DNA of 51,887 nt from a virus. Its lineage: Duplodnaviria; Heunggongvirae; Uroviricota; Caudoviricetes. Location of the stretch: positions 80,429-132,315 of the IMG/VR virus record IMGVR_UViG_2524023210_000007; one strand, written 5' to 3'. A model generated the notes under the pieces. That model was not told where the DNA came from and made no database searches. It worked only from the letters and a program-made list of their open reading frames with translations. Each line of letters begins with the position of its first letter. The first letter of the stretch is position 1. This document shows positions 31,845 through 43,547 of the stretch, one piece after another. The position numbers were made by a program, and so were the translations under genes.

Positions 31845-31997
31845 CGTGATTTCGACTTCAGGATGATCGCCCCTGCAAGGACATAAGGCGATCCGCTGAC
31901 TCGGTACTGGTCCCCTTCAGTGGGGCGGTAAACGGTGGTTTCCGACAGCGAAGTTTTTCTTTTGGCCGGGCCAGTCCCGGCCGTTTGTGAATTTCAC

Positions 31998-32072
31998 GCC
32001 GGCGTGGCGCAACGGTAGCGCAGCGCTCTCGTAAGGCGAAGGTCGTCAGTTCAAATCTGACCGTCGGCACCA
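31998..32072 (+). tRNA. tRNA-Thr(CGT)
   Basis: Cloverleaf, loop CT-CGT-AA, encoded CCA. Confidence 0.9.
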
Positions 32073-32073
32073 T

Positions 32074-32149
32074 GCTCCGTTAGCTCAGTGGTAGAGCAGC
32101 GCTTTTGTAAAGCGCAGGCCGCAGGTTCGATCCCGTGCACGGAGCACCA
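32074..32149 (+). tRNA. tRNA-Thr(TGT)
   Basis: GCGCT-TT TGT AA-AGCGC; irregular T stem; CCA. Confidence 0.85.
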
Positions 32150-32179
32150 ATCCAACTTGCAAGATTTTCTTTCAGGTTC

Positions 32180-32254
32180 GCTTCCATCGTTCAGCCGGCA
32201 GGACACCGCTTTGGTAAGGCGGCGACGCAGGTTCGAGCCCTGCTGGAAGCACCA
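32180..32254 (+). tRNA. tRNA-Thr(GGT)
   Basis: CCGCT-TT GGT AA-GGCGG; CCA. Confidence 0.9.
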
Positions 32255-32256
32255 TC

Positions 32257-32335
32257 GCGCCGGTAGCCCAACATGGCAGGAGGCATCTCGTTCAGGCCGA
32301 GAGCAGTGCAGGTTCGAATCCTGCTCGGCGCACCA
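32257..32335 (+). tRNA. tRNA-Leu(CAG), short variable loop
   Basis: TCTCG-TT CAG GC-CGAGA; 5-nt variable region; CCA. Confidence 0.85.
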
Positions 32336-32339
32336 ATTC

Positions 32340-32416
32340 GCCCGTGTAGCCCAATCGGTAGAGGCGGCGCTTTCAAACGGCGCGCGTTCGCGGTTCGAAT
32401 CCGTGCACGGGCACCA
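32340..32416 (+). tRNA. tRNA-Leu(CAA), short variable loop
   Basis: GCGCT-TT CAA AC-GGCGC; 5-nt variable region; CCA. Confidence 0.85.
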
Positions 32417-32421
32417 TCTTC

Positions 32422-32505
32422 GCGCGGCTGGCGGAATGAAGACGCAGCAGGTTTAAACCCTGCCGGCCAACGGTCGTCTCGGTTCAAGTCCGAGGCCGCG
32501 CACCA
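32422..32505 (+). tRNA. tRNA-Leu(TAA)
   Basis: GCAGG-TT TAA AC-CCTGC; long variable arm; CCA. Confidence 0.9.
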
Positions 32506-32701
32506 GATTGCGAAGGCGTCGAAACTCCACCGCAGATCGGCGAGATGAATATCTCTGGATAGTGGAGACGCATCGCCTCGATGAGGTTTTCAAGCGCTGC
32601 ACGTCCTGCGCCTGGTGGCACGTCGCTGGGCCCCCACAACGCGAACTCCTTAGGTGTTTCGTTGCAAAACACCGTGAGGGCAAGGAAAGGCTCTTCGGCC
32701 A

Positions 32702-33022
32702 TCACGCGCTCTTCGGCAACGTCTTGATCTTGGCGAGGTCGTCGGCAAGTTTCTGCTTGCTCTGCCAAAGATCGTAGTCCGTCTGCATGTCGGCCCACAA
32801 GTCGGGGCCGTTCCCGAAGAACTTGCCGAGACGCTGCGCCATGTCGGGCGAGATCGGAGACGGATTGTCCTCGCTCATGATGCGACCGAGCGTGACTTTT
32901 GTGGTTCCGATCAGGGGAGCGGCCGACGAAGCATTCAATCCGGCGTCGGCAAGCGCCGTTGCCAGGATGCGGCCAGGATGCGTCGGGGGGCGCTGGCGCG
33001 GGCCTGCCTTGTATTCAGCCAT
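32702..33022 (-). CDS. higA: HigA-family antitoxin (XRE HTH)
   Basis: PPTHPGRIL, ISPDMAQRLGKFFGNGPDLWADMQTDYDL; follows higB. Confidence 0.9.
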   Translation of the reverse strand: MAEYKAGPRQRPPTHPGRILATALADAGLNASSAAPLIGTTKVTLGRIMSEDNPSPISPDMAQRLGKFFGNGPDLWADMQTDYDLWQSKQKLADDLAKIKTLPKSA

Positions 33023-33059
33023 GACGATCTCCGGGGTGACGGGAGGGGCTTCGCGCCCC

Positions 33060-33338
33060 TCAGTGATATTGTTCAAAGTCGACACGATCGGCCTCTCCTT
33101 TATCAAATTCGAAGGTTATCCGCCAAGCGCCGGTTACCCAGATGGAATAGCGAACCGGCTTGAATTGCTTCAGGGGGTGCGTGTTGAACCCCGGAAGGTC
33201 GAGCGCCTGTAAGTTCGTCGCCCTGTTGAGAACGTCAAGCCGTTCAATGACTTTGGCTTGGAGCTTGGAGTCGATCCGGGCGGTGTGGCCCTTCTCGAAA
33301 AGCTCTTTGAGACCTTTGTGTTTGAAGCTCTTAATCAT
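33060..33338 (-). CDS. higB: HigB (RelE-superfamily) toxin
   Basis: MIKSFKHKGLKELFEKG...HPLK...YSIWVTGAWRITFEF...VDFEQYH. Confidence 0.92.
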   Translation of the reverse strand: MIKSFKHKGLKELFEKGHTARIDSKLQAKVIERLDVLNRATNLQALDLPGFNTHPLKQFKPVRYSIWVTGAWRITFEFDKGEADRVDFEQYH

Positions 33339-33348
33339 GAGAAGGAGC

Positions 33349-33386
33349 GTAACGCAATGTGTTACTCAAGTAAAGCGTTTTGTTAC
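33349..33386. promoter_or_regulatory. Two palindromic operator boxes upstream of higBA
   Basis: GTAACGCAATGTGTTAC (33349-33365) and GTAAAGCGTTTTGTTAC (33370-33386). Confidence 0.65.
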
Positions 33387-33403
33387 TTTCCTGAGGTTAT
33401 TTT

Positions 33404-33478
33404 GCGCGCTTAGCTCAGCGGTAGAGCGCCTGTTTTACACACAGGATGTCGGCCGTTCGATCCGGTCAGCGCGCACCA
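33404..33478 (+). tRNA. tRNA-Val(TAC)
   Basis: CCTGT-TT TAC AC-ACAGG; CCA. Confidence 0.92.
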
Positions 33479-33661
33479 AAGGTTGAGGCGATGGAATCGA
33501 AGGGCAGGCATGCTCGAGGCATCCACGTCTCCTCGAAGCCAGATTGATCCGCGCGCGGCGGGGTCACGCCCAGGTCTGCGCGCGCGATGACAACATCTGT
33601 GTCCCGTGGTTCTGGCTGAAGGTCGCCGGGTCGTCCCCGGTCGCTAACGGGACTCGAATTT

Positions 33662-33736
33662 GCGTCCGTAGCTCATCAGCAGAGCGCCGCTGTGACATGG
33701 CGGAGGCGGCAGGGGCGGCACCTGCCGGACGCACCA
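33662..33736 (+). tRNA. tRNA-Val(GAC), non-canonical T-loop
   Basis: CCGCT-GT GAC AT-GGCGG; T-loop GGCGGCA; CCA. Confidence 0.8.
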
Positions 33737-33737
33737 G

Positions 33738-34013
33738 TTATCTCTCGGACAGTCGCGCGATGAGGGCAGCCGTAACGGCATCCTGCACCGACGTAGAAAG
33801 GCGCTGCTGCGGAATGAGGGCTGATGGTTTCTGACGATCGATATAGTGGTCAGCAGCCTCTTCAGAGCCGAGCAACTTAACAAGCGATGCTCGAAATTTC
33901 GCGGAGTCTTTTTTCGGTCTCACATCTTCGGCTGGCCGGGCAGTGCTGGTGCCGAGCTGGAAGTACCGTTTGTCTTGGTTCGCCGGTTGGGCGAAGGGCT
34001 GATAAACCTGCAT
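33738..34013 (-). CDS. Hypothetical protein antisense to the array
   Basis: 91 aa filling the gap between two tRNAs. Confidence 0.45.
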   Translation of the reverse strand: MQVYQPFAQPANQDKRYFQLGTSTARPAEDVRPKKDSAKFRASLVKLLGSEEAADHYIDRQKPSALIPQQRLSTSVQDAVTAALIARLSER

Positions 34014-34072
34014 GGTATCTCCGAAAGGGGGCCTAATAATATCGCAAGCGTGCGGAGTTGCGAGTCTAATTT

Positions 34073-34147
34073 CCACCTTTAGCTCAGCAGCAGAGCGTCC
34101 GGCCGATAACCGGGAGGTCCGTGGGGCAGCACCACGAAGGTGGACCA
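34073..34147 (+). tRNA. tRNA-Ile(GAT), non-canonical T-loop
   Basis: TCCGG-CC GAT AA-CCGGG; T-loop GGCAGCA; CCA. Confidence 0.8.
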
Positions 34148-34218
34148 TCATCTGGAAGAGGCCGAAAATGCACTCTCAATTCAAACCGGCGCGGCTCGCC
34201 GCCGCAACCATCGACCCT

Positions 34219-34309
34219 GGATCGGTAGCCAAGTTGGTCGACGGCCCGGAACTTTTAATTCCGCGGGACATGCGCCCCGCCGTGAGTTCGAATCTCACCC
34301 GATCCTCCA
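34219..34309 (+). tRNA. tRNA-Lys(TTT) with long variable arm
   Basis: CGGAA-CT TTT AA-TTCCG; 18-nt variable arm; T73; CCA. Confidence 0.8.
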
Positions 34310-34313
34310 TCAT

Positions 34314-34402
34314 GGACGAGTAGCCAAGCGGTCGACGGCATCGGCTTCTTAACCCGACGGGCCTTGAGCCCCGCGCTGGTTCGAATCCAGCCTCGTTCAC
34401 CA
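34314..34402 (+). tRNA. tRNA-Lys(CTT) with long variable arm
   Basis: Loop TT CTT AA; variable arm CGGGCCTTGAGCCCCGC; CCA. Confidence 0.8.
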
Positions 34403-34405
34403 ATG

Positions 34406-34564
34406 TCAGTTTTCGCGAGGCAGTTTTGCGATTGCTCGCCCGAGCATAATCTCGATGCACCGTCCGCAGACCAGTTCGCCGTTGCCGGCCGGCGGCGCGA
34501 GAACGACCAGTTGATCTGGTTCGAATTCTTCTTCGCAGTGATCACAGCGAGGGCTTTCGAGCAT
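34406..34564 (-). CDS. Small zinc-finger protein antisense to the array
   Basis: CDHC...CGRC, 52 aa, fits between tRNAs. Confidence 0.5.
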   Translation of the reverse strand: MLESPRCDHCEEEFEPDQLVVLAPPAGNGELVCGRCIEIMLGRAIAKLPREN

Positions 34565-34579
34565 CCCACATTTACCTAC

Positions 34580-34663
34580 GCGCTTGTGGCGGAATTCGGT
34601 AGACGCAGCGTCTTGAGAGGGCGCCGGGAAACCATGCCGGTTCGAGTCCGGCCTAGCGCACCA
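34580..34663 (+). tRNA. tRNA-Leu(GAG)
   Basis: GCGTC-TT GAG AG-GGCGC; variable arm; CCA. Confidence 0.9.
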
Positions 34664-34684
34664 TCTTTGCAGAAAATGCAAATT

Positions 34685-34760
34685 GCCCATGTCCCCATCT
34701 GGTGAAGGGACCGGATTGTCGATCCGGCAAAGGCGAGTTCGATCCTCGTCATGGGCGCCA
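34685..34760 (+). tRNA. tRNA-Asp(GTC)
   Basis: CCGGA-TT GTC GA-TCCGG; G73; CCA. Confidence 0.9.
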
Positions 34761-34764
34761 ATTC

Positions 34765-34841
34765 CGGCGTGTAGCGCAGCCAGGTAGCGCACCTCGTTCG
34801 GGACGAGGGGGCCGCAGGTTCAAATCCTGCTACGCCGACCA
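34765..34841 (+). tRNA. tRNA-Pro(CGG)
   Basis: CCTCG-TT CGG GA-CGAGG; CCA. Confidence 0.92.
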
Positions 34842-34847
34842 ATTCAC

Positions 34848-34923
34848 GGTCCTGGAGCCAGATGGGAAGGCCGGCCGCTCATAACGGCCAGATGAGGGTG
34901 TTCGATCCACCCCAGGACTACCA
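34848..34923 (+). tRNA. tRNA-Met or Ile2 (CAT)
   Basis: GGCCG-CT CAT AA-CGGCC; CCA. Confidence 0.8.
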
Positions 34924-34954
34924 TGTAAACTGCGGACCCGAGAGGAGGTCGACG

Positions 34955-35491
34955 ATGTTTCACGCCAATCCGGCGCTTATCTTGAACGCCGACTTCCAAC
35001 CATTGAGTTATTTTCCGCTCTCGCTCTTCAGTTGGGAGGAGGCGGTGCGCTCGGTGGTGAAGGGATCGCATGTCGTGGTCGCGGAATACGACCAGGTCGT
35101 CCGCAGCCCCTCGACGGTGATGCGGCTCCCCTCTGTGATCGCGCTGCGCGAGTACGTGCGGCCGCCGGCTCGAGTCGCCTTCACGCGGTTCAACGTCTTT
35201 CTCCGCGATCGCTTCCGCTGCCAATATTGCGGCGAGCAGCATCTGCGGGGCGAGTTGACATTCGACCACGTCGTGCCGCGCGCGATGGGCGGCAAGACCG
35301 AATGGACCAACATTGTTGCGGCCTGCAGCCCCTGCAACACGCGCAAGGACAAGCAGGTTTGGAAGCCCTTGCGGGTGCCGTTGGAGCCGACACAGTTCGA
35401 TCTGATGGCGGCGCAGCGGCTCTTTCCGCCGAACTTCCTGCACGAATCCTGGCTCGACTTCCTGTATTGGGATTCCGAGCTCGAGAAGTAA
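34955..35491 (+). CDS. HNH endonuclease
   Basis: GGAGG RBS; LILNADFQPL N-terminus; CQYCG...TFDHVVPR..GG...WTNIVAACSPCNTRK. Confidence 0.92.
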   Translation: MFHANPALILNADFQPLSYFPLSLFSWEEAVRSVVKGSHVVVAEYDQVVRSPSTVMRLPSVIALREYVRPPARVAFTRFNVFLRDRFRCQYCGEQHLRGELTFDHVVPRAMGGKTEWTNIVAACSPCNTRKDKQVWKPLRVPLEPTQFDLMAAQRLFPPNFLHESWLDFLYWDSELEK

Positions 35492-35493
35492 AC

Positions 35494-35531
35494 GCGCCGG
35501 CGGCGACGAGTTTGTGTCCGCCGGCGCACCA
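35494..35531 (+). other. Hairpin ending in ACCA (acceptor-stem mimic)
   Basis: GCGCCGGCGG / CCGCCGGCGC 10-bp stem followed by ACCA. Confidence 0.55.
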
Positions 35532-35532
35532 T

Positions 35533-35608
35533 CACCACGTAGCTCAACTGGATGAGCACGACCCTCCGAAGGTCGAGGATGTAGGTTCGAGTCCTATCGT
35601 GGTGGCCA
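35533..35608 (+). tRNA. tRNA-Arg(CCG)
   Basis: CGACC-CT CCG AA-GGTCG; CCA. Confidence 0.9.
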
Positions 35609-35609
35609 T

Positions 35610-35697
35610 GGGGGAGTAATCGGCGGGGACGCCGGCGCCGTTTTGAAAACGGCTGGGTGCGCCAGCACTGCGGATCAAGACCAGCACTCCTCCGCCA
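35610..35697 (+). tRNA. tRNA-Ser(TGA), atypical D and T arms
   Basis: GCCGT-TT TGA AA-ACGGC; variable arm; G73; CCA. Confidence 0.75.
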
Positions 35698-35701
35698 TTT
35701 T

Positions 35702-35788
35702 GGGCAGTGAACCGGCCGGGCGGCCGGCCTCCGTTGGAAGCGGAGTGGGCGCCTCGGCGCTGCGGATCGAGCCCGCCGCTGTCCGCCA
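35702..35788 (+). tRNA. tRNA-Ser(GGA), atypical D and T arms
   Basis: CTCCG-TT GGA AG-CGGAG; variable arm; G73; CCA. Confidence 0.75.
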
Positions 35789-35792
35789 CCTT

Positions 35793-35880
35793 GGAGAGTC
35801 AACCGGACAGGCGCGCCGGCACGGCTTCGAAAACCGATGGCACCGCAAGGTGTGAGGCTCATGTCCTCGGCTCTCCGCCA
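35793..35880 (+). tRNA. tRNA-Ser(CGA), atypical D and T arms
   Basis: Loop TT CGA AA; variable arm GGCACCGCAAGGTGT; G73; CCA. Confidence 0.7.
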
Positions 35881-35916
35881 CGCTGCTCCCATAATCGTGG
35901 CCTATCCGCGATCGCC

Positions 35917-36261
35917 ATGAGCATTTCGCGACGAGGCTTTCTCGGTGCCGCCCTGGGCTTGCTCGGTGGTGCAGGTGCTGCACGATCGGCGCCGGCGAGC
36001 GGCGGTGTTGTTCTGGGCATCGACGGCGGCGCTGTCCTCGGCGAGGCCGGTACAGAACTCGTCATGCCGCTGCCCGGCCATCCTGCTGGCGGCTTTCCGG
36101 TACCGGATCACATTGCGGATGCCCTGCGCGGCTGGCTCACTCGGGGTGAGATCCTGAAGGCCGAGCGCGCGATCTATTCTGTCTACGGCGGATGTACCCG
36201 GGACATGCCTGAGGAGTTGGAAGCCTCGGCACCTATCGCAGGGTCGAGCACCGGGCGCTGA
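35917..36261 (+). CDS. Hypothetical protein with twin-arginine signal-like N-terminus
   Basis: MSISRRGFLGAALGLLGG; 3' end overlaps next tRNA. Confidence 0.45.
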   Translation: MSISRRGFLGAALGLLGGAGAARSAPASGGVVLGIDGGAVLGEAGTELVMPLPGHPAGGFPVPDHIADALRGWLTRGEILKAERAIYSVYGGCTRDMPEELEASAPIAGSSTGR

Positions 36262-36320
36262 TCAGGCTCATAACCTGATGCCGAAAGGCAAAGTCGGTTC
36301 GATTCCGACCCCTGCAACCA
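36237..36320 (+). tRNA. tRNA-Met(CAT), initiator-like, long variable arm
   Basis: C1xA72 mismatch; TCAGG-CT CAT AA-CCTGA; GCC-GAAA-GGC variable arm; CCA. Confidence 0.75.
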
Positions 36321-36337
36321 ACTTGGAGGTGAATGCC

Positions 36338-36550
36338 ATGGACGCGCTGCTTCAGTTCTTCGCTTACGAGCACCTGCCGCCGCACCTCCAGGCGGTCAGT
36401 GCGCCATTCGGCGATCTGGCACGGGAAATGGCGCGATCGCTTCCGACCAATCCGGAAAGTGCGACGGCCATGCGGAAACTCCTCGAGGCGAAGGACTGCG
36501 CCGTTCGTGCCGTGCTCTTCAAGCCATTGTCGTCAGCCGTCATGGACTAA
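36338..36550 (+). CDS. Conserved small helical phage protein
   Basis: GGAGG RBS; QFFAYEHLP.HLQ.VS.PF..LA...RKLLEAKDCAVRA. Confidence 0.75.
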   Translation: MDALLQFFAYEHLPPHLQAVSAPFGDLAREMARSLPTNPESATAMRKLLEAKDCAVRAVLFKPLSSAVMD

Positions 36551-36569
36551 CGACAAGATCTCGAATTGG

Positions 36570-36728
36570 GCCGGGTGGAGCGACCGGACAATGCGGGGAC
36601 GTTTTGAGCCAAGGATCCGCACCCCAATCTCTGCTGCCAGGCGGCGCCTGCAAGCCGGGCCCGCAACCCCTGATTCAGTTCGGGGGCTCTGGATAGGGAT
36701 GGAGGGCGCGAGATCGCCTGGCAGCGGA
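36570..36728 (+). ncRNA. Candidate structured RNA in array spacer
   Basis: 13-bp stem CTGCTGCCAGGCG/CGCCTGGCAGCGG enclosing further hairpins. Confidence 0.4.
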
Positions 36729-36741
36729 CTTCTTCATTCTC

Positions 36742-36826
36742 GGGTAACGCCAAGTCTGGTGACTGAGCGGGGCTGTAAACCCTGCGCCTTAGCGCATGCC
36801 GTGTTCGATTCACGGGTTACCCACCA
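36742..36826 (+). tRNA. tRNA-Tyr(GTA)
   Basis: CGGGG-CT GTA AA-CCCTG; variable arm; CCA. Confidence 0.85.
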
Positions 36827-36834
36827 TCTTCAAC

Positions 36835-36908
36835 GCGGACAAAAGATTACGGCAGTCGGCGAGTATGCCATGCTCGCAGCGGCGGTTCGACTCCGCCTGT
36901 CCGCACCA
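36835..36908 (+). tRNA. tRNA-Gly(GCC), degenerate D arm
   Basis: CGAGT-AT GCC AT-GCTCG; A73; CCA. Confidence 0.7.
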
Positions 36909-36916
36909 ATTTTTGA

Positions 36917-37016
36917 GGGGGCGCGCACCAGATGCCGGTCGCTCCGGCTGATGGAAAGGCGCGAGCCGGAGTTGATCGCCCGGTGTGAGGTGGTGCGAAT
37001 CCATCCGCCCTGTCCA
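36917..37016 (+). ncRNA. tRNA-like RNA with enlarged anticodon arm
   Basis: Acceptor GGGGGCG/CGCCCTG, T arm GGTGG-TGCGAAT-CCATC, 9-bp arm with 14-nt loop, TCCA end. Confidence 0.5.
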
Positions 37017-37021
37017 AATTC

Positions 37022-37096
37022 GCCTGGATAGCTCAGTGGTAGAGCGGCGTCTTGAAGCGGCGCGCGCCGGTGGTTCGATCCCATCTCCAGGCACCA
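37022..37096 (+). tRNA. tRNA-Phe(GAA)
   Basis: GCGTC-TT GAA GC-GGCGC; CCA. Confidence 0.9.
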
Positions 37097-37103
37097 CGAC
37101 AAC

Positions 37104-37175
37104 GGGGAGCGCGCAAGGGCGCAGCTGATGTTTGCACCATCGGCGCGGTCGGGGCGGTACCGACGCTCTCCACCA
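37104..37175 (+). tRNA. tRNA-Ala(TGC), shortened D arm, non-canonical T-loop
   Basis: G3:U70; loop TT TGC AC; T-loop GGCGGTA; CCA. Confidence 0.7.
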
Positions 37176-37187
37176 TCATCACCAGCA

Positions 37188-37251
37188 CGACCTGCCGATT
37201 TTCGGTCGACCTGCACTTTGGCGGTCGACCTGCCGGTTTGGCTGGACCTGC
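37188..37251 (+). repeat. Four SGACCTGC repeats, period 19/19/18 nt
   Basis: Copies at 37188, 37207, 37226, 37244. Confidence 0.8.
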
Positions 37252-37255
37252 ATAT

Positions 37256-37341
37256 TGCTCGGTGGGGGAATTGGTAGACCCTCGCGACTGTTAATCGCGC
37301 GCCGAAAGGCACTGCAGGTTCGAAGCCTGCCCGAGCAGCCA
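37256..37341 (+). tRNA. tRNA-Asn(GTT) with long variable arm
   Basis: CGCGA-CT GTT AA-TCGCG; GCC-GAAA-GGC variable arm; G73; CCA. Confidence 0.8.
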
Positions 37342-37394
37342 ACCGACAAGGTCCCGAATCGGCGCATCAAATGATGCGGCAAAATGGGACCAAT

Positions 37395-37469
37395 GCTGCC
37401 ATCGTCTAGTGGCCAGGATGCCCGGTTCTCAGCCGGTCGACGCCGGTTCGAGTCCGGCTGGCAGTGCCA
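37395..37469 (+). tRNA. tRNA-Glu(CTC)
   Basis: Loop TT CTC AG; G73; CCA. Confidence 0.88.
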
Positions 37470-37474
37470 ATTCG

Positions 37475-37655
37475 AAGCGAGCGCCAGGACGCGCGAGGTG
37501 GAGCGCCGGTCAGTGCCGGCAGCTTCTCAGCCGCGCGCGGATCGGCGCAGCGCTGGACGTGATCTCGGGGCGGACCTGGTCGATCGGCAGGTCTCAGGCG
37601 AAGCGCGCCGCGCGCATCGAGACGAGAAGTCGAGGGGAAACCTCGGCGAGGCGAG
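37475..37655 (+). ncRNA. Candidate structured RNA in array spacer
   Basis: CGAGGT/ACCTCG closing stem, GCCGG hairpin, GCTTCTC/GAGAAGT and GCGCGCGG/CCGCGCGC stems. Confidence 0.45.
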
Positions 37656-37660
37656 AGTTT

Positions 37661-37739
37661 GCCCGCGTAACCGGCTCTGCCTACGAAGCAGAAGTACCGT
37701 AACTGGAGCATGCAGGTTCGACTCCTGCCGCGGGCTCCA
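37661..37739 (+). tRNA. tRNA-Arg(ACG) lacking a D arm
   Basis: Acceptor GCCCGCG/CGCGGGC; 8-nt linker; TCTGC-CT ACG AA-GCAGA; 19-nt variable region; canonical T arm; CCA. Confidence 0.7.
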
Positions 37740-37745
37740 AATCAT

Positions 37746-37824
37746 CAGCGTGTAGGGGAGCCTGGTCGTCCCTACCTGCCTTGGAAGCAGGGGATCGGTG
37801 GTTCGAATCCACCCACGCTGACCA
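37746..37824 (+). tRNA. tRNA-Pro(TGG)
   Basis: CCTGC-CT TGG AA-GCAGG; CCA. Confidence 0.88.
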
Positions 37825-37902
37825 TCATCTGCCCGTTGATAACATCGCAAGAAGTTCTTCTGCGATCGTTGAGACGTGCGATCTATCCCGCGGGCTTGAT
37901 TT

Positions 37903-37983
37903 TTTGGGCGAGCCCCAGGCGTTCGGTTATCCAACCATTGATGGAAAAGCCCCGATCGCCGTTCTTACGTTCGCCCTCAAAGA
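37903..37983 (+). ncRNA. Y-RNA-like module 1 (minimal)
   Basis: GGGCGAG-CCCCAG...TTCGGTTA 5' arm and CCCGAT...CGTTCGCCC 3' arm, shared with modules 2-4. Confidence 0.6.
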
Positions 37984-37984
37984 T

Positions 37985-38117
37985 ATCGGACGAGCCCCAG
38001 AAGTTCGGTTACCCTTGCTAAGGTAGAGGTCGGCGGTTCGAATCCGTCTCGGGAGAAATCCCGATAGCTCAGTGGTAGAGCGCTAAATCCCGATCTTCGC
38101 TCTCACGTTCGTCCGGT
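37985..38117 (+). ncRNA. YrlA-like Y RNA with circularly permuted tRNA domain
   Basis: Shared stem plus T arm (GGCGG-TTCGAAT-CCGTC), acceptor stem closed by GAAA, then D arm (GCTC-AGTGGTA-GAGC); upstream of Ro60. Confidence 0.8.
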
Positions 38118-38134
38118 CACCTTTGAGGTTTTCG

Positions 38135-38263
38135 ACAGACTGGTTTGCGGGACCGAGCCCCAGAGGTTCGCTTATCTGGATATAGCAGGTTCGACTCCCG
38201 CCATGGCCGCAAGGCCGTGTAAACGCGATCTCGCCATCACGCTCGGCCCCGCAAACCGGTCTG
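38135..38263 (+). ncRNA. Y-RNA-like module 3 (T arm plus acceptor mimic, no D arm)
   Basis: Long outer stem; GCAGG-TTCGACT-CCCGC then CATGGCC-GCAA-GGCCGTG. Confidence 0.7.
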
Positions 38264-38278
38264 CCATCTCGGAGGCCC

Positions 38279-38371
38279 ATCAACTCGAACGAGCCCCAGG
38301 AATTCGGTTATCAGCAATCTTGAAACTTGCACCGAACCCCGATTTCCGCTCTCCCGTTCGTTCGAGTTGAT
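38279..38371 (+). ncRNA. Y-RNA-like module 4 (minimal)
   Basis: ATCAACTCGAACG/CGTTCGAGTTGAT outer stem; shared internal motifs. Confidence 0.65.
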
Positions 38372-38399
38372 CGGCCTCACCAACTCAGAGGAGGCCAAC

Positions 38400-40025
38400 A
38401 TGAAGTATGCAGGACTGATCGCGGCTGACGTGCCGCAGAGCGAGCCGCTGAATGCGCGGCAGGTCAAGAACAACGCCGGTGGTTTCGTATTCGCGATCGA
38501 CAATTGGGCGCGGCTCGACCGCTTCCTGATCCTCGGCAGCGATGCGCCGACCTATTACCAGACCGCGCGGGCGCTGACCCGCGAGAACGCCAAGGTCGTC
38601 GACGAGTGCTACGCCGCGGATCCGGCCCGCACCGTCGCGCGTACGGTCGAAATCTCTGATCAGGGCAGGGCGCCGAAGAACGATCCGGCCATCTTCGTCC
38701 TGGCCATCGGCGCCGTGCATGCCGACCAGAAGGTGCGCCAGCTCGCGTTGGCGGCTGTCCCGAAGATCTGCCGGACCGCGACGCACTTGTTCCAGTTCGT
38801 CAAGGCGGCGCGATCGCTCGGCCGTGGCTGGGGACGGTCGCTGAAGACGGCGATCGCGAACTGGTACAACTCGAAGTCCCTGGATGACGTGGCGTACCAG
38901 GCCATCAAATACCGCGAGCGCGAGGGCTACTCGCACAAGCGGCTCCTCCAGACAGCCCACCCGGCCGCCTCGGAGTCGCCGGCGCGGATCGCGCTCTATC
39001 GCTGGATGCGCGGGCTCGATCCCGGCGGAGAACTCCCGGCGATCGTGCAGGCTCACCTGAAGGCGATGACTCCGGATTTGGGGAAGGGGCATGTCCTCGA
39101 CCTCATCAAGGAGCACCGCCTGCCTTGGGAAGCGCTGCCGACCGAGTACAATGGAGATCCGGATGCATGGCGCGCCATGCTCCCGACTCTTGGGCTCGGC
39201 GCCATGGTCCGCAATCTCGGCAATATGTCCCGGCTCGGCGCCATCAAGCCGCTGTCGGAGTCCGAGGCCGTCGTGGTCAGCCGGTTGTCCGATGAATCCG
39301 CAATCCGGAAATCCCGCCTGCACCCGTTCTCGATCCTGTTGGCCATGGCAGTCTATTCGTCCGGCCGCGGTGTTCGGGGTGCTGGTGCATGGGACCCGTC
39401 CCGGGCCGTGGTCGATGCGCTCGACGGCGCCTTCTACAAGGCGTTCGCCAACGTGCAGGCGAGCGGCAAGCGGATTCTCATCGCGCTGGACGTTTCGGGT
39501 TCGATGGGCTCTCCGATCATGGGATCTCCGATCTCCTGCCGCGATGCCACGGCGGCACTGGCACTGGTCACCATGTCGACTGAGAAGCAGACCCATGTGG
39601 TCGGCTTCACATCGGCGGGTCACGCTCAGCGGCGCTACGGCGGGCAATGGGGTGGCGGCGAGGCTGGGTTGTCGCCTTTGGCGATCTCACCGCGCCAGCG
39701 CCTGACCGACGCCGTGAGAGCGGTGTCAAATCTGCCTTTCGGTGGAACGGACTGTGCCCTTCCGATGCTGTACGCGCTGGAGAAGGGCCTCGAGGTCGAT
39801 GCCTTCTATGTCTATACCGATAGCGAGACTTGGGCCGGAGACGTCCATCCGGTCAAGGCCCTCCAGCAGTATCGGCAGAAGACGGGCATTCCAGCCAAGC
39901 TGGTGGTGGTCGGCATGACGTCGACCGGCTTCTCGATCGCGGATCCGAGCGACGCCGGCATGCTTGATGTCGTCGGCTTCGACGCCGCGGCACCGCTCGT
40001 CATGGCGGATTTCGTTCGCGGCTAA
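38400..40025 (+). CDS. rsr: Ro60/TROVE-domain RNA-binding protein
   Basis: GAGGAGG RBS; QVKNNAGGFVF, GRAPKNDPAIFVLA, KYREREGYSH, vWA MIDAS ALDVSGSM, LDVVGFD. Confidence 0.93.
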   Translation: MKYAGLIAADVPQSEPLNARQVKNNAGGFVFAIDNWARLDRFLILGSDAPTYYQTARALTRENAKVVDECYAADPARTVARTVEISDQGRAPKNDPAIFVLAIGAVHADQKVRQLALAAVPKICRTATHLFQFVKAARSLGRGWGRSLKTAIANWYNSKSLDDVAYQAIKYREREGYSHKRLLQTAHPAASESPARIALYRWMRGLDPGGELPAIVQAHLKAMTPDLGKGHVLDLIKEHRLPWEALPTEYNGDPDAWRAMLPTLGLGAMVRNLGNMSRLGAIKPLSESEAVVVSRLSDESAIRKSRLHPFSILLAMAVYSSGRGVRGAGAWDPSRAVVDALDGAFYKAFANVQASGKRILIALDVSGSMGSPIMGSPISCRDATAALALVTMSTEKQTHVVGFTSAGHAQRRYGGQWGGGEAGLSPLAISPRQRLTDAVRAVSNLPFGGTDCALPMLYALEKGLEVDAFYVYTDSETWAGDVHPVKALQQYRQKTGIPAKLVVVGMTSTGFSIADPSDAGMLDVVGFDAAAPLVMADFVRG

Positions 40026-40031
40026 CGACTC

Positions 40032-40060
40032 GAGCGGGGCGCACGCGCCTCGCTCTTCCA
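40032..40060 (+). other. Hairpin ending in TTCCA after rsr
   Basis: GAGCGGGGCG-CACG-CGCCTCGCTC 10-bp stem. Confidence 0.5.
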
Positions 40061-40061
40061 T

Positions 40062-40137
40062 CGGGGATTAGCTTAGTGGCTTAAAGCACCGCGCTCTGAC
40101 CGCGGCACCGTCGGTTCGAATCCGGCATCCCCTGCCA
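40062..40137 (+). tRNA. tRNA-Gln(CTG)
   Basis: CCGCG-CT CTG AC-CGCGG; CCA. Confidence 0.88.
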
Positions 40138-40144
40138 ATTTTAT

Positions 40145-40218
40145 CGCGCGAGGTCCGGGCGGTTAGGACGCGGTCTGCAAAACCGTGAAGACGGGTTCGA
40201 CTCCCGTTCGCGCATCCA
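40145..40218 (+). tRNA. tRNA-Cys(GCA)
   Basis: GCGGT-CT GCA AA-ACCGT; U73; CCA. Confidence 0.85.
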
Positions 40219-40265
40219 TGGAACAAAAACGCCAAAATCGAAGATTTTTTTCAGATCTTTTGCAC

Positions 40266-40341
40266 GCGCTCGTGGGCCAACTGGACGGCCAGCGGATTTC
40301 TACTCCGCCGCATGAGGGTTCGAGTCCTTCCGAGCGCGCCA
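40266..40341 (+). tRNA. tRNA-Arg(TCT)
   Basis: GCGGA-TT TCT AC-TCCGC; CCA. Confidence 0.9.
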
Positions 40342-40342
40342 A

Positions 40343-40588
40343 CTAATCGGACAGATGTCTTGCGAGATGTTTCTCGATGATGTCGACCAGGCTCAGATCG
40401 TCGGGCCAATCGTTGTCGCCGTGCTCGGCGCAGATCCGGCGCAAAGCTGCGATCGCTTTTCCGCGCTCGATGAGCCAATCATGATTGTCCCGCTCCTCAC
40501 CGCCGAGATTTGTCAGGGCCTCGAGCAGCATCTTGCGCCATGCCGCCCGGCTGCCTTCGACGTAGGCTCGTTCCTGGTCTGGGCTCAT
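40343..40588 (-). CDS. Hypothetical protein antisense to the array
   Basis: 81 aa exactly filling the Arg-Ser gap; AAAGGAAC RBS. Confidence 0.6.
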   Translation of the reverse strand: MSPDQERAYVEGSRAAWRKMLLEALTNLGGEERDNHDWLIERGKAIAALRRICAEHGDNDWPDDLSLVDIIEKHLARHLSD

Positions 40589-40608
40589 TGATTTGTTCCT
40601 TTCGAATT

Positions 40609-40695
40609 GGAGAGGTGGCCGAGCGGTAAGGCAGCGCCTTGCTAAGGCGCCGAGTCCTTCGGGATGCGCAGGTTCGATCCCTGTCCTCTCCGCCA
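40609..40695 (+). tRNA. tRNA-Ser(GCT)
   Basis: GCGCC-TT GCT AA-GGCGC; variable arm; G73; CCA. Confidence 0.92.
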
Positions 40696-40879
40696 ATCCA
40701 TGAAGCGGCCGACTGCGGTGTCGGTGCGCGGGGCCAACCCAGTTGCAAACTTTTGCTGATCGCGTGCCCATGCAAAGAGTTCGCTATCTTCAAAATAGAC
40801 GTCGAGTTTTCCGTCGACGATGATCTCATCGGAACGGCGAACATATTCTGTCATGGTCCCCATCAGAAATCCTTCCATA

Positions 40880-40954
40880 GCGGGCTTGGCGTACTGGGGT
40901 GCGCGCTTGGCTTCCATCCAAGAGGTAGGTGTTCGATCCACCTAGCCCGCACCA
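40880..40954 (+). tRNA. tRNA-Gly(TCC)
   Basis: CTTGG-CT TCC AT-CCAAG; A73; CCA. Confidence 0.8.
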
Positions 40955-40958
40955 ACAA

Positions 40959-41216
40959 TCAGATCTCGACAGCGAAGCCGGCCTTATCGCCATAGCCGAT
41001 GCGCAGCGGAGTGCCGCAAAGGGTGTCGACTTTTCTGGCCTCGAGATTGAAAGTCGCTTCCGATCCCATCGCGCGATATTCGAGTTTGATGGCGCTGTTG
41101 AATTGACGCGCCGCCGTCTCGTCGGCGAAACGAATATCGACCGCGGCCGGCATTTCGAGATTGTGCTGGCGACAGAACTGCTGGAGCGCCAGCATCATTT
41201 TCGACAGATCTTTCAT
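40959..41216 (-). CDS. Hypothetical protein antisense to the array
   Basis: 85 aa filling the Gly-Glu gap; its GGGAG RBS is the antisense of the Glu acceptor stem. Confidence 0.55.
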   Translation of the reverse strand: MKDLSKMMLALQQFCRQHNLEMPAAVDIRFADETAARQFNSAIKLEYRAMGSEATFNLEARKVDTLCGTPLRIGYGDKAGFAVEI

Positions 41217-41219
41217 ATT

Positions 41220-41294
41220 GCTCCCTTCGTCTACTGGCTAGGATATCACTCTTTCACAGTGAGGAAACGGGTTCGATCCCCGTAGGGAGCGCCA
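41220..41294 (+). tRNA. tRNA-Glu(TTC)
   Basis: TCACT-CT TTC AC-AGTGA; G73; CCA. Confidence 0.92.
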
Positions 41295-41299
41295 TCAAT

Positions 41300-41388
41300 T
41301 CGGGGATGACCGAGCCAGGTTAAGGTACCCGCCTTTGAAGCGGTGGTCGGCGATCGCCGCGCGCGTTCAAATCGCGCTCCCCGGGCCA
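41300..41388 (+). tRNA. tRNA-Gln(TTG) with long variable arm
   Basis: Loop CT TTG AA; variable stem CGGC-GATC-GCCG; CCA. Confidence 0.75.
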
Positions 41389-41885
41389 GCACCTGGCCGC
41401 CAATCGCCGATGCCGCGTTCGTCGCCGAATCGGTCGCGCACGCCGACCATGTCGAGCCTCAGAGGCCGGTGCCTGCGCTTGCCGCTGGTGGAGATTTGTT
41501 CCTCGTACTGGCTTCCGAGCATGGTGCAGTCACGCCAGTCTTCGTCATCGCCGGCGAGATCCGGGTGCTGTTGCCACATTCTGCAGGTGTTGCCGTCGTT
41601 CGGATGCATGCACTCGGCATCGCTTCCTTCCGGTTCACGTGCCAGCTTGGCGTCAGATTGCAGATCCGGAGGCAATCCTTTCTGCGCCCGCGACAGCGCG
41701 GTTACGAGTCCACCAATTCGGTCGAGGTTGTACTTTCGCTCCGCCCAGATCGGGTTGACGCCTCCGCGTCCCATGATGGCGTCCTGATCTACGGGAGCAC
41801 CGCAAGCGATCATGCCGTCCTGGCGATAGCACGCGCGAGCGCAGGTGCCGCACCGTTTCATCGTATCGGTTTTCAACGTGATCAT
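41367..41885 (-). CDS. Cys-rich hypothetical protein antisense to the array
   Basis: CGTCARAC...C; fills the Gln-Met gap. Confidence 0.5.
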   Translation of the reverse strand: MITLKTDTMKRCGTCARACYRQDGMIACGAPVDQDAIMGRGGVNPIWAERKYNLDRIGGLVTALSRAQKGLPPDLQSDAKLAREPEGSDAECMHPNDGNTCRMWQQHPDLAGDDEDWRDCTMLGSQYEEQISTSGKRRHRPLRLDMVGVRDRFGDERGIGDWRPGAGPGSAI

Positions 41886-41958
41886 CGCAGGGCCTCTCGG
41901 GTAGGGTCTCGGTCTCATAAATCGGGATAGGGCGGTTCGAAGCCGCTACCTGCGACCA
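41886..41958 (+). tRNA. tRNA-Met(CAT), degenerate
   Basis: CGCAGGG/ACCTGCG; loop CT CAT AA; CCA. Confidence 0.65.
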
Positions 41959-41965
41959 TCCATTC

Positions 41966-42040
41966 TCCGACTTCGTCTATCAGCTAAGGCGCTCGGTTGT
42001 GGACCGGGAAAACGCGGGGCAGCACCGCGAGTCGGGACCA
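41966..42040 (+). tRNA. tRNA-His(GTG) without G-1, with A73
   Basis: CTCGG-TT GTG GA-CCGGG; T-loop GGCAGCA; CCA. Confidence 0.8.
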
Positions 42041-42045
42041 TTCTT

Positions 42046-42119
42046 GGGAGTGTCGTCTAGTGGTAAGACGCCGGCCTCCAAACCCGGCTACGTGGGTTCG
42101 ATTCCTGCCGCTCCTGCCA
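42046..42119 (+). tRNA. tRNA-Trp(CCA)
   Basis: Loop CT CCA AA; G73; CCA. Confidence 0.85.
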
Positions 42120-42450
42120 TCCCTTCAAGCGCGAGACGTGCGCGCAGCGCCGCGATGCAGATTGCAATCGCTGCCGGTCGGACCTTGTCCGATACCTCGA
42201 TCCCGCGGCCGGTGCCCGTCGGATACTTCTCCTTGCGGAATAGCTGCACCATCCCCCACTCGTTGATGTTCCAAGTGTACTCGGCCGGCACCAAGGTCAG
42301 GGCTGCGTCGATCGATGCTAAAAAATCCGGGATCTCGTCGTCCGCCATGTCGCCTTCCATCTCGCGATAGAAGTCGAGTCGGGCGATGGCGGCATTGAGC
42401 TCGAACGATGACTCGGTCGCGTTCGTCAGCCGTTCGATCAAGTCCATCAT
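42088..42450 (-). CDS. Hypothetical phage protein
   Basis: SIDAALTLVP motif seen in small phage proteins; C-terminus overlaps tRNA-Trp. Confidence 0.55.
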   Translation of the reverse strand: MMDLIERLTNATESSFELNAAIARLDFYREMEGDMADDEIPDFLASIDAALTLVPAEYTWNINEWGMVQLFRKEKYPTGTGRGIEVSDKVRPAAIAICIAALRARLALEGMAGAAGIEPT

Positions 42451-42830
42451 GTTGTCACCTTCATTGGAAATGCGGCGAGCGCCGCGGCTTCGAACTCGGA
42501 CCGCCTAGCATCCAGGATCTCCCGAGGCGGAGACTGCCACGCCAAGATGCGTCTAGAAGGGTCTCTAGTGGCGTACTCTTCCTTCCACTGCTGGTTCCAA
42601 TCTGACCACAGCTTTGCCTCATACCGCTTTCGATCGCGCCACTGGTCGAGGCAGTTGATTCCGCAGTAATGGTGATCGCGGTCGAGGGGCAATGACACGG
42701 CCATAGCGGTCACAGATGGACCTTGCACGGCCCGCGTCTCGACGACGAGAGCAAGTCGATAGTCGAAGCAATTTCCCGTCGACGTGATGTCAGCTCCGCA
42801 GCCGTCGCATTTGATCTCGATGGTTTTCAT
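42447..42830 (-). CDS. Hypothetical protein with CxxC motifs
   Basis: CDGC, HYCGINC; coupled. Confidence 0.55.
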   Translation of the reverse strand: MKTIEIKCDGCGADITSTGNCFDYRLALVVETRAVQGPSVTAMAVSLPLDRDHHYCGINCLDQWRDRKRYEAKLWSDWNQQWKEEYATRDPSRRILAWQSPPREILDARRSEFEAAALAAFPMKVTT

Positions 42831-42842
42831 CTCGTTCCTCGT

Positions 42843-43379
42843 TCAGAATTCAGGGGACGCATCAATCAGGTCGAGTTCGGCCTGGCGGAGAGAAGCCCAC
42901 GCCTGCTCCAGGAGCGATGCCGGCGCCTTCGTCAGGATCTCGAGCGTGGCGCGCTTCTCCGGCAGATACGTCTTGGCGAAGCCTGGATTGTGCTTTGCGA
43001 TTGTCGACGTGTTGCTGATCAGGTCTGCGCACTTCACACCTTGGCTTTCGGCCCCAGCCGTCGCGAGCCGAGAGCGGTCGATCTCCTTCCGGCGCGCGCG
43101 GTTCAAGCCCGGCGTTGGCGGCGTATCGGTGAGATAGTGCACGATCAGCGCGACGCCGGATCCGAACTTTGCGCAGATCTCCGGGATTGAGGCATCGGTG
43201 TCTTCCACGGTGTCGTGAAGCCACGCCGCGGCGATCGCGGTCTCGGACATGCCGGCGCGCTCCACGATGCGGGCAACTTCCTCGAGATGAACGAAGTACG
43301 GTTCGCCGGTGTATTCGCGCAGCTGCTTCACGTGCTTCTTCCGCGCGAATTCGCGAGCTCGGAAGACCAGATCATTCAT
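42843..43379 (-). CDS. HD-domain hydrolase, Mesh1 / small alarmone hydrolase-like
   Basis: H..QLR..TGEPY.VH, LHDTVEDT, LTD, VKCADLISN: RelA/SpoT hydrolase motifs, no synthetase domain. Confidence 0.85.
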   Translation of the reverse strand: MNDLVFRAREFARKKHVKQLREYTGEPYFVHLEEVARIVERAGMSETAIAAAWLHDTVEDTDASIPEICAKFGSGVALIVHYLTDTPPTPGLNRARRKEIDRSRLATAGAESQGVKCADLISNTSTIAKHNPGFAKTYLPEKRATLEILTKAPASLLEQAWASLRQAELDLIDASPEF

Positions 43380-43547
43380 AGGCCATCACCTTGTCGTGGT
43401 CGCTTGAAGTAGATTTCCCGGGCACCATTTTCACTGCGCTCGGTATGCCATGCCTCCCAACCTTCGCGGGCCCAGCTTGCGTAGAAGGTCGTACCAGCTT
43501 TCGCCGGGGAGGGTGCTTTCCGATCGATATTCCCATTGCTGTTTCAT
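43376..43547 (-). pseudogene. DUF4177-like small gene with a +1 frameshift
   Basis: MKQQWEYR...LRKLG|REGWE...EIYFKRP; 172 nt, coupled at both ends; one extra C near 43468-43473. Confidence 0.55.

What the first reader, a model, noticed from the sequence alone, without database searches (positions are those of the whole stretch)
37903..38371. Four tandem Y-RNA-like modules with one shared stem and graded effector domains
Seen: four units share CGAG-CCCCAG, TTCG(G/C)TTA, (C/G)CGAT and CG(T/C)TCG, each closed by its own outer stem with different sequence. The inserts differ: a tiny hairpin (1), a full circularly permuted tRNA domain in T arm/closed acceptor/D arm order (2), T arm plus acceptor only (3), a small hairpin (4). 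Module 4 ends 28 nt before the rsr start and could also autoregulate it. Established: YrlA RNAs have this permuted tRNA fold and lie next to Ro60 genes. Inference: a set of interchangeable Ro60 adaptors, more than the one or two Y RNAs I know of per locus.
Basis: partly seen in the sequence, partly recalled or inferred. Interest (0 to 1): 0.85.

Follow-up and report, generated by a model that had tools for sequence, protein, structure and literature searches.

The report
Four Y RNA genes before phage Ro60
A prophage in a Bradyrhizobium-like genome carries four small structured RNA genes in a row just before its Ro60 gene; all four share one Ro60-type "handle" but display different heads, which extends the known one-or-two Y RNA arrangement without being a new kind of system.

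Summary
Four tandem units at 37906-38363 share a two-helix handle. A covariance model of that handle finds exactly these four in the 9-Mb genome. It finds one match in one of 150 sampled same-genus genomes and none in 150 same-class genomes.

Across 117 related modules from 40 loci, 97% of handle positions pair and 12 of 16 pairs show compensatory changes. Arrays of 3-5 modules are the norm. In 23 of 28 loci the nearest module ends 61 nt or less before rsr, on the same strand.

- Module 2 is a YrlA-type permuted tRNA mimic.
- Module 3 is a conserved T arm plus closed acceptor stem, with a retained D-loop GG.
- Modules 1 and 4 are short-loop classes with their own conserved features, not truncated tRNAs, so "graded" is only partly right.

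Best reading: four Y RNA genes, probably cut from a tRNA-array/rsr precursor, that bind the prophage Ro60. Neither transcripts nor Ro60 binding could be tested here.

Two Y RNAs per species, several YrlA hits per locus and phage Y RNAs are already published. I call this a new variant of a known kind. Earlier notes of this scan report similar arrays on other DNA.

The parts
37906..37976 (+). Y RNA module 1: handle plus a 24-nt loop (37928-37951). Short-loop class that always sits 8-16 nt before a YrlA-type module.
   Evidence: R1 hit 78.3 bits. Fold z -3.5. Same slot and outer helix GGGCGAGC/GTTCGCCC in L006, L021, L054, L058, L071, L073.
37988..38114 (+). Y RNA module 2: YrlA-type. Handle plus a small hairpin (38013-38023), T arm (38032-38048), closed 6-bp acceptor-like stem with GAAA loop (38049-38064), and UA plus D arm (38065-38081).
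   Evidence: Rfam YrlA RF02553, 40.6 bits, E 3e-7, model positions 23-88. RNAalifold on 10 homologues recovers the T arm, acceptor stem and D arm with compensatory changes. R1 hit 82.8 bits.
38138..38261 (+). Y RNA module 3 (core 38151-38248, with about 13 extra outer pairs). Handle plus conserved CUGG (38176-38179), T arm (38185-38201) and a closed 7-bp acceptor-like hairpin (38202-38219). No D stem.
   Evidence: R1 hit 45.1 bits although it was not in the seed. Fold z -6.0. Orthologues with the same layout in L058, L054, L007, L019, L120, L078.
38272..38378 (+). Y RNA module 4 (core 38287-38363) inside a long, roughly 23-bp outer stem. Head is a small hairpin (38314-38330) with a CUUGAAA loop.
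   Evidence: R1 hit 86 bits. Fold z -4.9. The hairpin stem covaries and the loop motif recurs in L006, L044, L109, L039, L035. The extended stem is conserved.
38373..38396 (+). Leader hairpin GGCCUC...GAGGCC that covers the rsr Shine-Dalgarno sequence (GGAGG, 38390-38394). Its 5' arm is also the 3' end of module 4's long stem, whose other partner is the GGAGGCC copy at 38271-38277.
   Evidence: -13.1 kcal/mol alone, z -2.8. The two pairings alternate between the MFE and the centroid of the 588-nt fold. The same arrangement, with changed sequences, is seen in L006, L021, L058, L007, L019, L120, L078, L083, L044 and L109.
38400..40025 (+). rsr (Ro60 orthologue), 541 aa.
   Evidence: Pfam vWA_Ro60 1.2e-64 and TROVE 5.6e-34. 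It is the only TROVE locus in the genome.
31998..42119 (+). Same-strand tRNA array (31 ARAGORN calls) in which the Y RNA/rsr block is embedded. tRNA-Pro(UGG) ends at 37824 and tRNA-Gln starts at 40062.
   Evidence: No promoter-like or terminator-like sites above shuffle expectation in 31000-43500.

Best explanation
The 470 nt between tRNA-Pro(UGG) and rsr hold four separate Y RNA genes of a roughly 100-kb prophage.

Each RNA pairs its 5' and 3' ends into a shared handle: helix NNNCGAGC/G(U/C)UCGNNN, a CCCA/8-nt internal loop, then helix NNNN-U-UCGG/CCGA-U-NNNN followed by UUAUC. This handle is the likely docking site for the prophage Ro60 ring.

The heads differ:
- M1: a short single-stranded loop.
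- M2: a full permuted tRNA mimic of the YrlA type.
- M3: a tRNA 'elbow' made of a T arm, a closed acceptor stem and the D-loop GG.
- M4: a small hairpin.

Inferred, not shown:
- The RNAs are co-transcribed with the tRNA array and rsr, then cut out. The long perfect stems of M3 and M4 look like RNase III substrates.
- Each RNA binds Ro60 and either gates it or tethers it to a different partner, as Yrn1 tethers Rsr to PNPase.
- The tRNA-like heads would recruit tRNA-recognising enzymes.
- M4's long stem competes with a hairpin that hides the rsr ribosome-binding site. This would couple Y RNA folding or processing to Ro60 synthesis.
For: The motif set occurs four times here and nowhere else in the window.

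The handle model R1 finds exactly these four in the 9-Mb genome. It finds one match in one of 150 sampled same-genus genomes and none in 150 same-class genomes, so it is specific.

M3 was found although it was left out of the seed.

R1 finds 117 modules in 40 genome, viral and metagenome loci. 97.3% of cells are paired, against 23-50% when the partners are slid. 12 of 16 pairs change on both sides, and no shuffle out of 500 reaches the observed values.

Array sizes are 1 (9 loci, mostly short contigs), 2 (4), 3 (13), 4 (9) and 5 (5). In 23 of 28 loci that include rsr, the nearest module ends 19-61 nt before the start codon on the same strand.

The slot order short, 11 nt, YrlA, about 38 nt, T-arm or double hairpin, about 38 nt, last module, about 35 nt, rsr recurs in L006, L054, L058 and L071.

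M2 matches the tRNA-like core of Rfam YrlA. An independent RNAalifold run recovers the T arm, the closed acceptor stem (compensatory changes at all six pairs) and the D arm.

The 588-nt region folds into the four modules with z -7.5.

The downstream gene is a bona fide Ro60.

Published precedent: M. smegmatis YrlA and YrlB lie upstream of rsr, come from one precursor and are bound by Rsr, and YrlB has a T arm (PMC4201824). Thermus phage phiLo has two Y-like RNAs upstream of its Ro60, and they bind it and host PNPase (PMC12135203).
Against: There is no direct evidence here for discrete transcripts, RNA ends or Ro60 binding.

No Rfam family reaches its gathering score. YrlA scores 40.6 against a threshold of 69, and only its tRNA-like core aligns, not its Ro-binding stem.

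The handle carries CGAG (or UGAG) where published bacterial Y RNAs carry GNCGAA or CGAA.

No promoter-like or terminator-like site marks individual genes.

The covariation alignments were fitted to the model, which favours pairing. The slid controls and the seed-independent hits offset this only in part.

Many of the 117 modules are related, so the counts are not independent events.
Confidence: 0.8

Rival explanations
1. The four modules are not separate RNAs. They are one long structured 5' leader of rsr that controls its translation or stability in cis, for example through Ro60 binding its own mRNA.
For: No promoter or terminator lies between the modules and rsr. The last module sits a conserved 19-61 nt from the start codon in 23 of 28 loci. 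A conserved alternative pairing links M4's stem to the Shine-Dalgarno sequence.
Against: Modules of the same family occur far from the rsr start. Examples are a module 2.8 kb further on, beyond rsr, in L039; arrays 540-690 nt upstream in L049 and L040; and internal gaps of 200-430 nt in L073 and L043. In the published cases the homologous RNAs are released and bound in trans (PMC4201824). Four different conserved heads are hard to explain by cis control alone. A dual role for M4 remains possible.
Confidence: 0.1
2. The modules are decaying or rearranged tRNA genes left over from the surrounding tRNA array, with no function of their own.
For: They lie inside a 31-tRNA array. M2 and M3 contain canonical T arms. 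M3's T stem has one A.C mismatch.
Against: The non-tRNA handle is the best conserved part and it covaries. M1 and M4 have no tRNA features. The permuted order T arm, closed acceptor, D arm is kept over loci whose Ro60 is only 50-60% identical. The same A.C mismatch occurs in L058, with A-U and G-C at that position in relatives, which is the pattern of a covarying pair. The tRNA model scores only 15-18 bits on this stretch, below its gathering score of 29.
Confidence: 0.03
3. The repeats act as DNA, for example as protein-binding sites, recombination sites or a small mobile repeat, rather than as RNA.
For: They are tandem repeats with inverted-repeat ends inside a mobile element.
Against: G.U-type pairs are frequent and strand-specific: the G.U at outer-helix pair 7 is present in 94 of 117 modules. 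All copies share the strand of rsr. There are no copies elsewhere in the genome. The heads contain RNA-specific motifs such as the T loop, D loop and GNRA loops.
Confidence: 0.02

Closest known systems
Mycobacterium smegmatis YrlA and YrlB (Chen et al. 2014, PMC4201824)
   Same: Tandem RNAs upstream of rsr on the same strand, processed from one precursor and bound by Rsr. One is a permuted tRNA mimic (like M2). The other keeps only a possible T arm (like M3).
   Different: Four genes here, not two. Two further short-loop classes are present. The handle motif is CGAG rather than GNCGAA. The locus lies in a prophage tRNA array. Nothing here has been shown experimentally.
Salmonella Typhimurium YrlA (Rfam RF02553; structure described in bioRxiv 10.1101/312249)
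   Same: The head is T arm, closed six-pair acceptor-like stem, UA linker and D arm, attached through a helix to a Ro60-binding stem.
   Different: In Salmonella the RNAs lie 3' of rsr in the RtcR-controlled rsr-yrlBA-rtcBA operon. Only model positions 23-88 align to M2, and the score (40.6) is below the gathering score (69).
Deinococcus radiodurans Yrn1/Yrn2 and small RNAs a-d upstream of rsr (PMC4201824)
   Same: Several small RNAs are encoded upstream of rsr. Yrn1 tethers Rsr to PNPase. [quoted passage not shown]
   Different: The Deinococcus handle resembles the metazoan one on both strands. Only two of the four RNAs are accepted as Y RNAs. The locus is chromosomal, not phage-borne.
Thermus phage phiLo Yrl1/Yrl2 with phage Ro60 (PMC12135203)
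   Same: A phage-encoded Ro60 is preceded by Y-like RNAs that bind it and can bridge to host PNPase.
   Different: Two RNAs, CGAA motif, no tRNA-like heads reported, no tRNA array.
Vertebrate Y RNAs (two to four paralogues per species)
   Same: Paralogous RNAs share a conserved Ro60-binding stem and differ in the loop that binds other proteins.
   Different: They are separate RNA polymerase III genes with a different handle sequence and no tRNA mimicry.

Membership tests
Bacterial Y RNA (Rsr-associated ncRNA) | Encoded within about 4 kb of rsr on the same strand | tested here: met
   All four modules lie 36-423 nt upstream of the rsr ATG on the + strand.
Bacterial Y RNA (Rsr-associated ncRNA) | 5' and 3' ends pair into a long stem that carries the conserved Ro60-binding motif (GNCGAA N0-1 G, or CGAA, on the 5' strand) | tested here: inconclusive
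   A covarying terminal stem is present. The conserved 5'-strand motif is N-CGAG-C (UGAG in some relatives), not CGAA. The Ro-binding stem of the Rfam YrlA model does not align.
Bacterial Y RNA (Rsr-associated ncRNA) | Bound and stabilised by Rsr/Ro60 | not testable with these tools
   Needs immunoprecipitation or gel-shift assays.
Bacterial Y RNA (Rsr-associated ncRNA) | Accumulates as a discrete RNA of about 60-150 nt | not testable with these tools
   Needs northern blots or small-RNA sequencing of the lysogen.
YrlA (Rfam RF02553) | tRNA-like head in the order T arm, closed acceptor stem, D arm, with conserved T-loop and D-loop bases | tested here: met
   Met for M2 only. GUUCGAAUC T loop, AGUGGUA D loop and UA linker are read directly from the sequence. 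M3 lacks the D stem. M1 and M4 lack all of these features.
YrlA (Rfam RF02553) | Score at or above the curated gathering threshold | tested here: not met
   40.6 bits against a threshold of 69, as a local match to model positions 23-88 of 114. No hit in gathering mode.
tRNA | Cloverleaf with an open acceptor end and an anticodon arm | tested here: not met
   ARAGORN calls nothing in 37825-40061. The Rfam tRNA model scores 17.8 and 15.0 bits against a threshold of 29. The acceptor stems are closed by loops.
Ro60/Rsr protein (partner gene) | TROVE HEAT-repeat ring plus C-terminal vWA domain | tested here: met
   PF05731 5.6e-34 and PF25045 1.2e-64.

The most novel reading that the evidence does not exclude
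A fixed cassette of four to five Y RNA classes programmes one phage Ro60 ring for several different partners. The tRNA-shaped heads would recruit tRNA-processing or tRNA-repair enzymes to watch over the phage's own 31-tRNA supply during infection, for instance against host anticodon nucleases. The last Y RNA would also work as a switch that sets Ro60 translation through the competing GGAGGCC / GGCCUC / GGAGGCC pairings.
Probability: 0.15. Interest if true: 0.7.

Novelty: new variant of a known kind. Interest (0 to 1): 0.45.

Why it matters
What bacterial Y RNAs do, and what their tRNA-like heads bind, is still open. This locus and about 40 relatives offer a natural set of RNAs with one handle and at least five recurring heads in a fixed order. 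The heads are a short loop, a full tRNA mimic, an elbow-only mimic, a small hairpin and a double hairpin.

That makes partner identification a comparative experiment: the same Ro60, the same handle, and swapped heads.

It also shows that current database models (Rfam YrlA) miss this handle type and all members without a tRNA-like head, so Y RNA content per locus is under-counted.

Placement inside phage tRNA arrays links Ro60/Y RNA to phage control of the tRNA pool.

Tried and rejected
- **Sequencing runs:** two searches. No RNA holder was listed, so expression and RNA ends could not be examined and read laying was not used.
- **Rfam in gathering mode:** only tRNAs were found.
- **DNA search of the region in 60 relatives:** only short tRNA-like matches. 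The block is not conserved in the genus.
- **blastn against cultured phages:** only the Ro60 coding part matches, at 64-72% identity, in actinophages and one Sinorhizobium phage.
- **Promoter and terminator scans:** nothing above shuffle expectation. A TTGACA-like element that I saw by eye inside the Propylenella-type arrays was not called by the scan, so I make no claim about it.
- **My first helix-descriptor script:** far too unspecific. I replaced it with the covariance model.
- **M3 as a decaying copy (one-base shift in helix 2, A.C in the T stem):** rejected. L058 and L054 share the bulged layout, and the A.C sits between A-U and G-C states in relatives.
- **Literature not available:** the reviews by Sim & Wolin (2018), Boccitto & Wolin (2019) and Sim et al. 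(2020), and the supplements of Chen et al. (2014), are not held. I could not check whether arrays of more than two Y RNAs are listed there.

Full report
**What is there**

The interval 37825-38399 lies between tRNA-Pro(UGG) (37746-37824) and an ORF starting at ATG 38400. That ORF is a clear Ro60/Rsr orthologue (Pfam vWA_Ro60 1.2e-64, TROVE 5.6e-34).

The 10-mer CGAGCCCCAG occurs exactly four times in the window, at 37909, 37991, 38154 and 38290. Each copy lies 13 nt before TTCG(G/C)TTA, and there are no minus-strand copies.

**Is the shared stem an RNA structure?**

I built a covariance model (R1) of the handle from nine modules of the window and two close relatives, leaving module 3 out.

- R1 recovers module 3 at 45.1 bits and nothing else in the window.
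- It finds exactly these four hits in the whole 9.0-Mb genome, one match in one of 150 sampled genomes of the same genus, and none in 150 genomes sampled across the class. The model is specific and the element is sporadic.

Relatives were fetched in two ways: through the Ro60 protein and through a degenerate DNA pattern in viral and metagenome contigs. R1 then finds 117 modules in 40 loci.

On that alignment 97.3% of cells form standard pairs, against 23-50% when the 3' partners are slid. 12 of 16 pairs show changes on both sides, and no shuffle of 500 reaches the observed values. A first set of 33 modules gave the same picture.

Two caveats apply. The alignments were fitted to the model, and many rows are related.

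**Arrays are the rule in this family**

Counting R1 hits per locus gives 1 module in 9 loci (mostly short contigs), 2 in 4, 3 in 13, 4 in 9 and 5 in 5. In 23 of 28 loci where rsr is on the contig, the nearest module ends 19-61 nt before the start codon on the same strand.

The window's layout is short module, 11 nt, YrlA-type, 36 nt, T-arm type, 38 nt, short module, 36 nt, rsr. Nearly the same spacing recurs in:

- L006 (Bradyrhizobium sp. C9, Ro60 86% identical);
- L054, L058 and L071 (soil metagenomes);
- L021, L033, L039, L059, L083 and L117, in shortened form.

In L007 and L019 the array follows an rtcB-like gene instead of tRNAs. That fits the published rsr-rtcB link (bioRxiv 10.1101/312249).

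**The heads**

*Module 2.* It matches the tRNA-like core of Rfam YrlA at 40.6 bits, E 3e-7, model positions 23-88, below the gathering score of 69. RNAalifold on ten homologous modules, run without any model, predicts three elements:

- a 5-bp T arm with a GUUCGAAUC-type loop;
- a closed 6-bp acceptor-like stem, with compensatory changes at all six pairs;
- an invariant D arm preceded by UA.

*Module 3.* It has the T arm and a closed 7-bp acceptor-like hairpin followed by UA, but no D stem. Seven orthologues (the window's module 3 plus L058, L054, L007, L019, L120, L078) all keep CUGG just after the handle.

In the Propylenella-type loci the corresponding slot reads UGGUAGAGC at the 5' side and UAGCUCA at the 3' side. 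That is a D arm split by the handle. I therefore infer that module 3's GG is the retained D-loop G18-G19 and that the head mimics only the tRNA elbow.

Its one-base bulge in helix 2 and the A.C in the T stem are shared with L058 and L054, or flanked by A-U and G-C states in relatives. They are lineage features, not decay.

*Modules 1 and 4.* They have no tRNA features.

- Module 1's predicted 4-bp hairpin is not conserved. What recurs in that slot is the outer helix GGGCGAGC/GUUCGCCC and a 15-25-nt loop with an AUGA-type motif.
- Module 4's hairpin stem covaries (GCAA/UUGC, AGAUU/AAUCU, CAGA/UCUG, CAGU/ACUG) around a CUUGAAA-like loop.

*Slot swapping.* In L006 the third slot carries an unrelated double hairpin. 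In L054, L058, L071, L007 and L019 the same double hairpin fills the last slot.

So heads are exchanged on a constant handle.

**Context**

The window has phage tail genes (tape measure, central tail fibre and others). IMG/VR holds 94-102-kb viral contigs with 86%-identical Ro60 and the same array. The rsr gene here is the only TROVE locus in the genome.

The array of 31 tRNAs, the four modules and rsr all lie on one strand, without promoter-like or terminator-like sites above shuffle expectation. I infer co-transcription and processing, as shown for M. smegmatis YrlA and YrlB (PMC4201824).

Modules 3 and 4 sit in long, nearly perfect stems of roughly 23 bp whose extensions also covary. These are plausible RNase III sites. 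That is inference only.

**Link to rsr translation**

GGAGGCC occurs at 38271-38277, at the base of module 4's long stem, and again at 38390-38396, where it includes the Shine-Dalgarno sequence. Both copies are complementary to GGCCUC at 38373-38378.

- The isolated leader folds into a hairpin that covers the Shine-Dalgarno sequence (-13.1 kcal/mol, z -2.8).
- In the 588-nt fold the MFE uses that hairpin, while the centroid uses the long module-4 stem.
- The same three-part arrangement, with different sequences, is seen in L006, L021, L058, L007, L019, L120, L078, L083, L044 and L109.

I put it at about one in three. It remains untested.

**Comparison with what is known**

Chen et al. 2014 (PMC4201824) reported the following:

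- YrlA-like RNAs near rsr in 254 bacteria and 22 phages, 355 hits in all, so some loci hold several;
- two Rsr-bound Y RNAs in each of three species;
- a T arm in M. smegmatis YrlB;
- four small RNAs upstream of D. radiodurans rsr.

Thermus phage phiLo has two Y-like RNAs before its Ro60 (PMC12135203).

The kind of system is therefore known. In the literature I could reach, the following have not been described:

- the fixed cassette of four (up to five) classes on one divergent CGAG handle;
- the classes without tRNA-like heads;
- the elbow-only and D-split heads;
- the conserved slot order;
- the possible Shine-Dalgarno switch.

Several reviews were not available to me.

Earlier notes of this scan describe comparable arrays of four to seven Y-like genes beside Ro60 in other genomes, including one between a tRNA array and rsr. 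I did not test those.

**Verdict**

The best reading is four Y RNA genes (confidence 0.8). The adaptor function and the processing route are inferred. I class it as a new variant of a known kind, of moderate interest.

Noticed in passing
window 38271-38277, 38373-38378, 38390-38396: GGAGGCC occurs twice, once at the base of module 4's long stem and once as the rsr Shine-Dalgarno region. Both copies are complementary to GGCCUC between them. This looks like a conserved mutually exclusive pairing.
   Followed up: partly
L008:2666-2788, L009:2660-2787, L010:2690-2815: A module whose Ro-type handle is inserted in the D loop of an otherwise nearly complete tRNA-like body: GGUAGAGC, hairpin, T arm, closed acceptor stem, UAGCUCA. 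This is a different permutation from YrlA.
   Followed up: partly
L006:2749-2850, L007:2849-2959, L019:2860-2959, L120:466-573, L008:2832-2932: A recurring double-hairpin head (GCCGGC...GCCGGC, then a hairpin with a CGCAAG-type loop) that fills the third or last slot of arrays. Its function is unknown.
   Followed up: partly
L120:618-769 and L078:1713-1869; also L007:2393-2445: A palindromic element of about 50 nt (CAUGAUCCCGAAA...UUUUCGGA..AGAUCAUG) is inserted in the acceptor-like hairpin of the T-arm class in two loci. It also occurs free-standing upstream of the L007 array, so it looks like a small mobile repeat.
   Followed up: no
window 37661-37735: A tRNA-like sequence not called by ARAGORN. 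It gives a sub-threshold tRNA-Sec match (29.9 bits against 47) with a very short D region.
   Followed up: no
window 37843-37871: An imperfect hairpin (AUCGCAAGAAG...CUUCUGCGAU) followed by a U run just before module 1. It could be a processing or termination signal between the tRNA block and the Y RNA block.
   Followed up: no
L039:9459-9531: An extra short module of the same handle family lies about 1.2 kb downstream of the rsr stop (2.8 kb beyond the upstream array), so members are not restricted to the rsr leader.
   Followed up: no
window 34862-35491 (+) and 42843-43379 (-): An HNH endonuclease gene sits inside the tRNA array, and an HD_4 (RelA/SpoT-type hydrolase) domain protein is encoded on the opposite strand just past it.
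   Followed up: no
whole genome (G000): The prophage rsr is the only TROVE-domain locus in the 9-Mb genome. Only 1 of 150 sampled same-genus genomes has any module of this handle type.
   Followed up: yes
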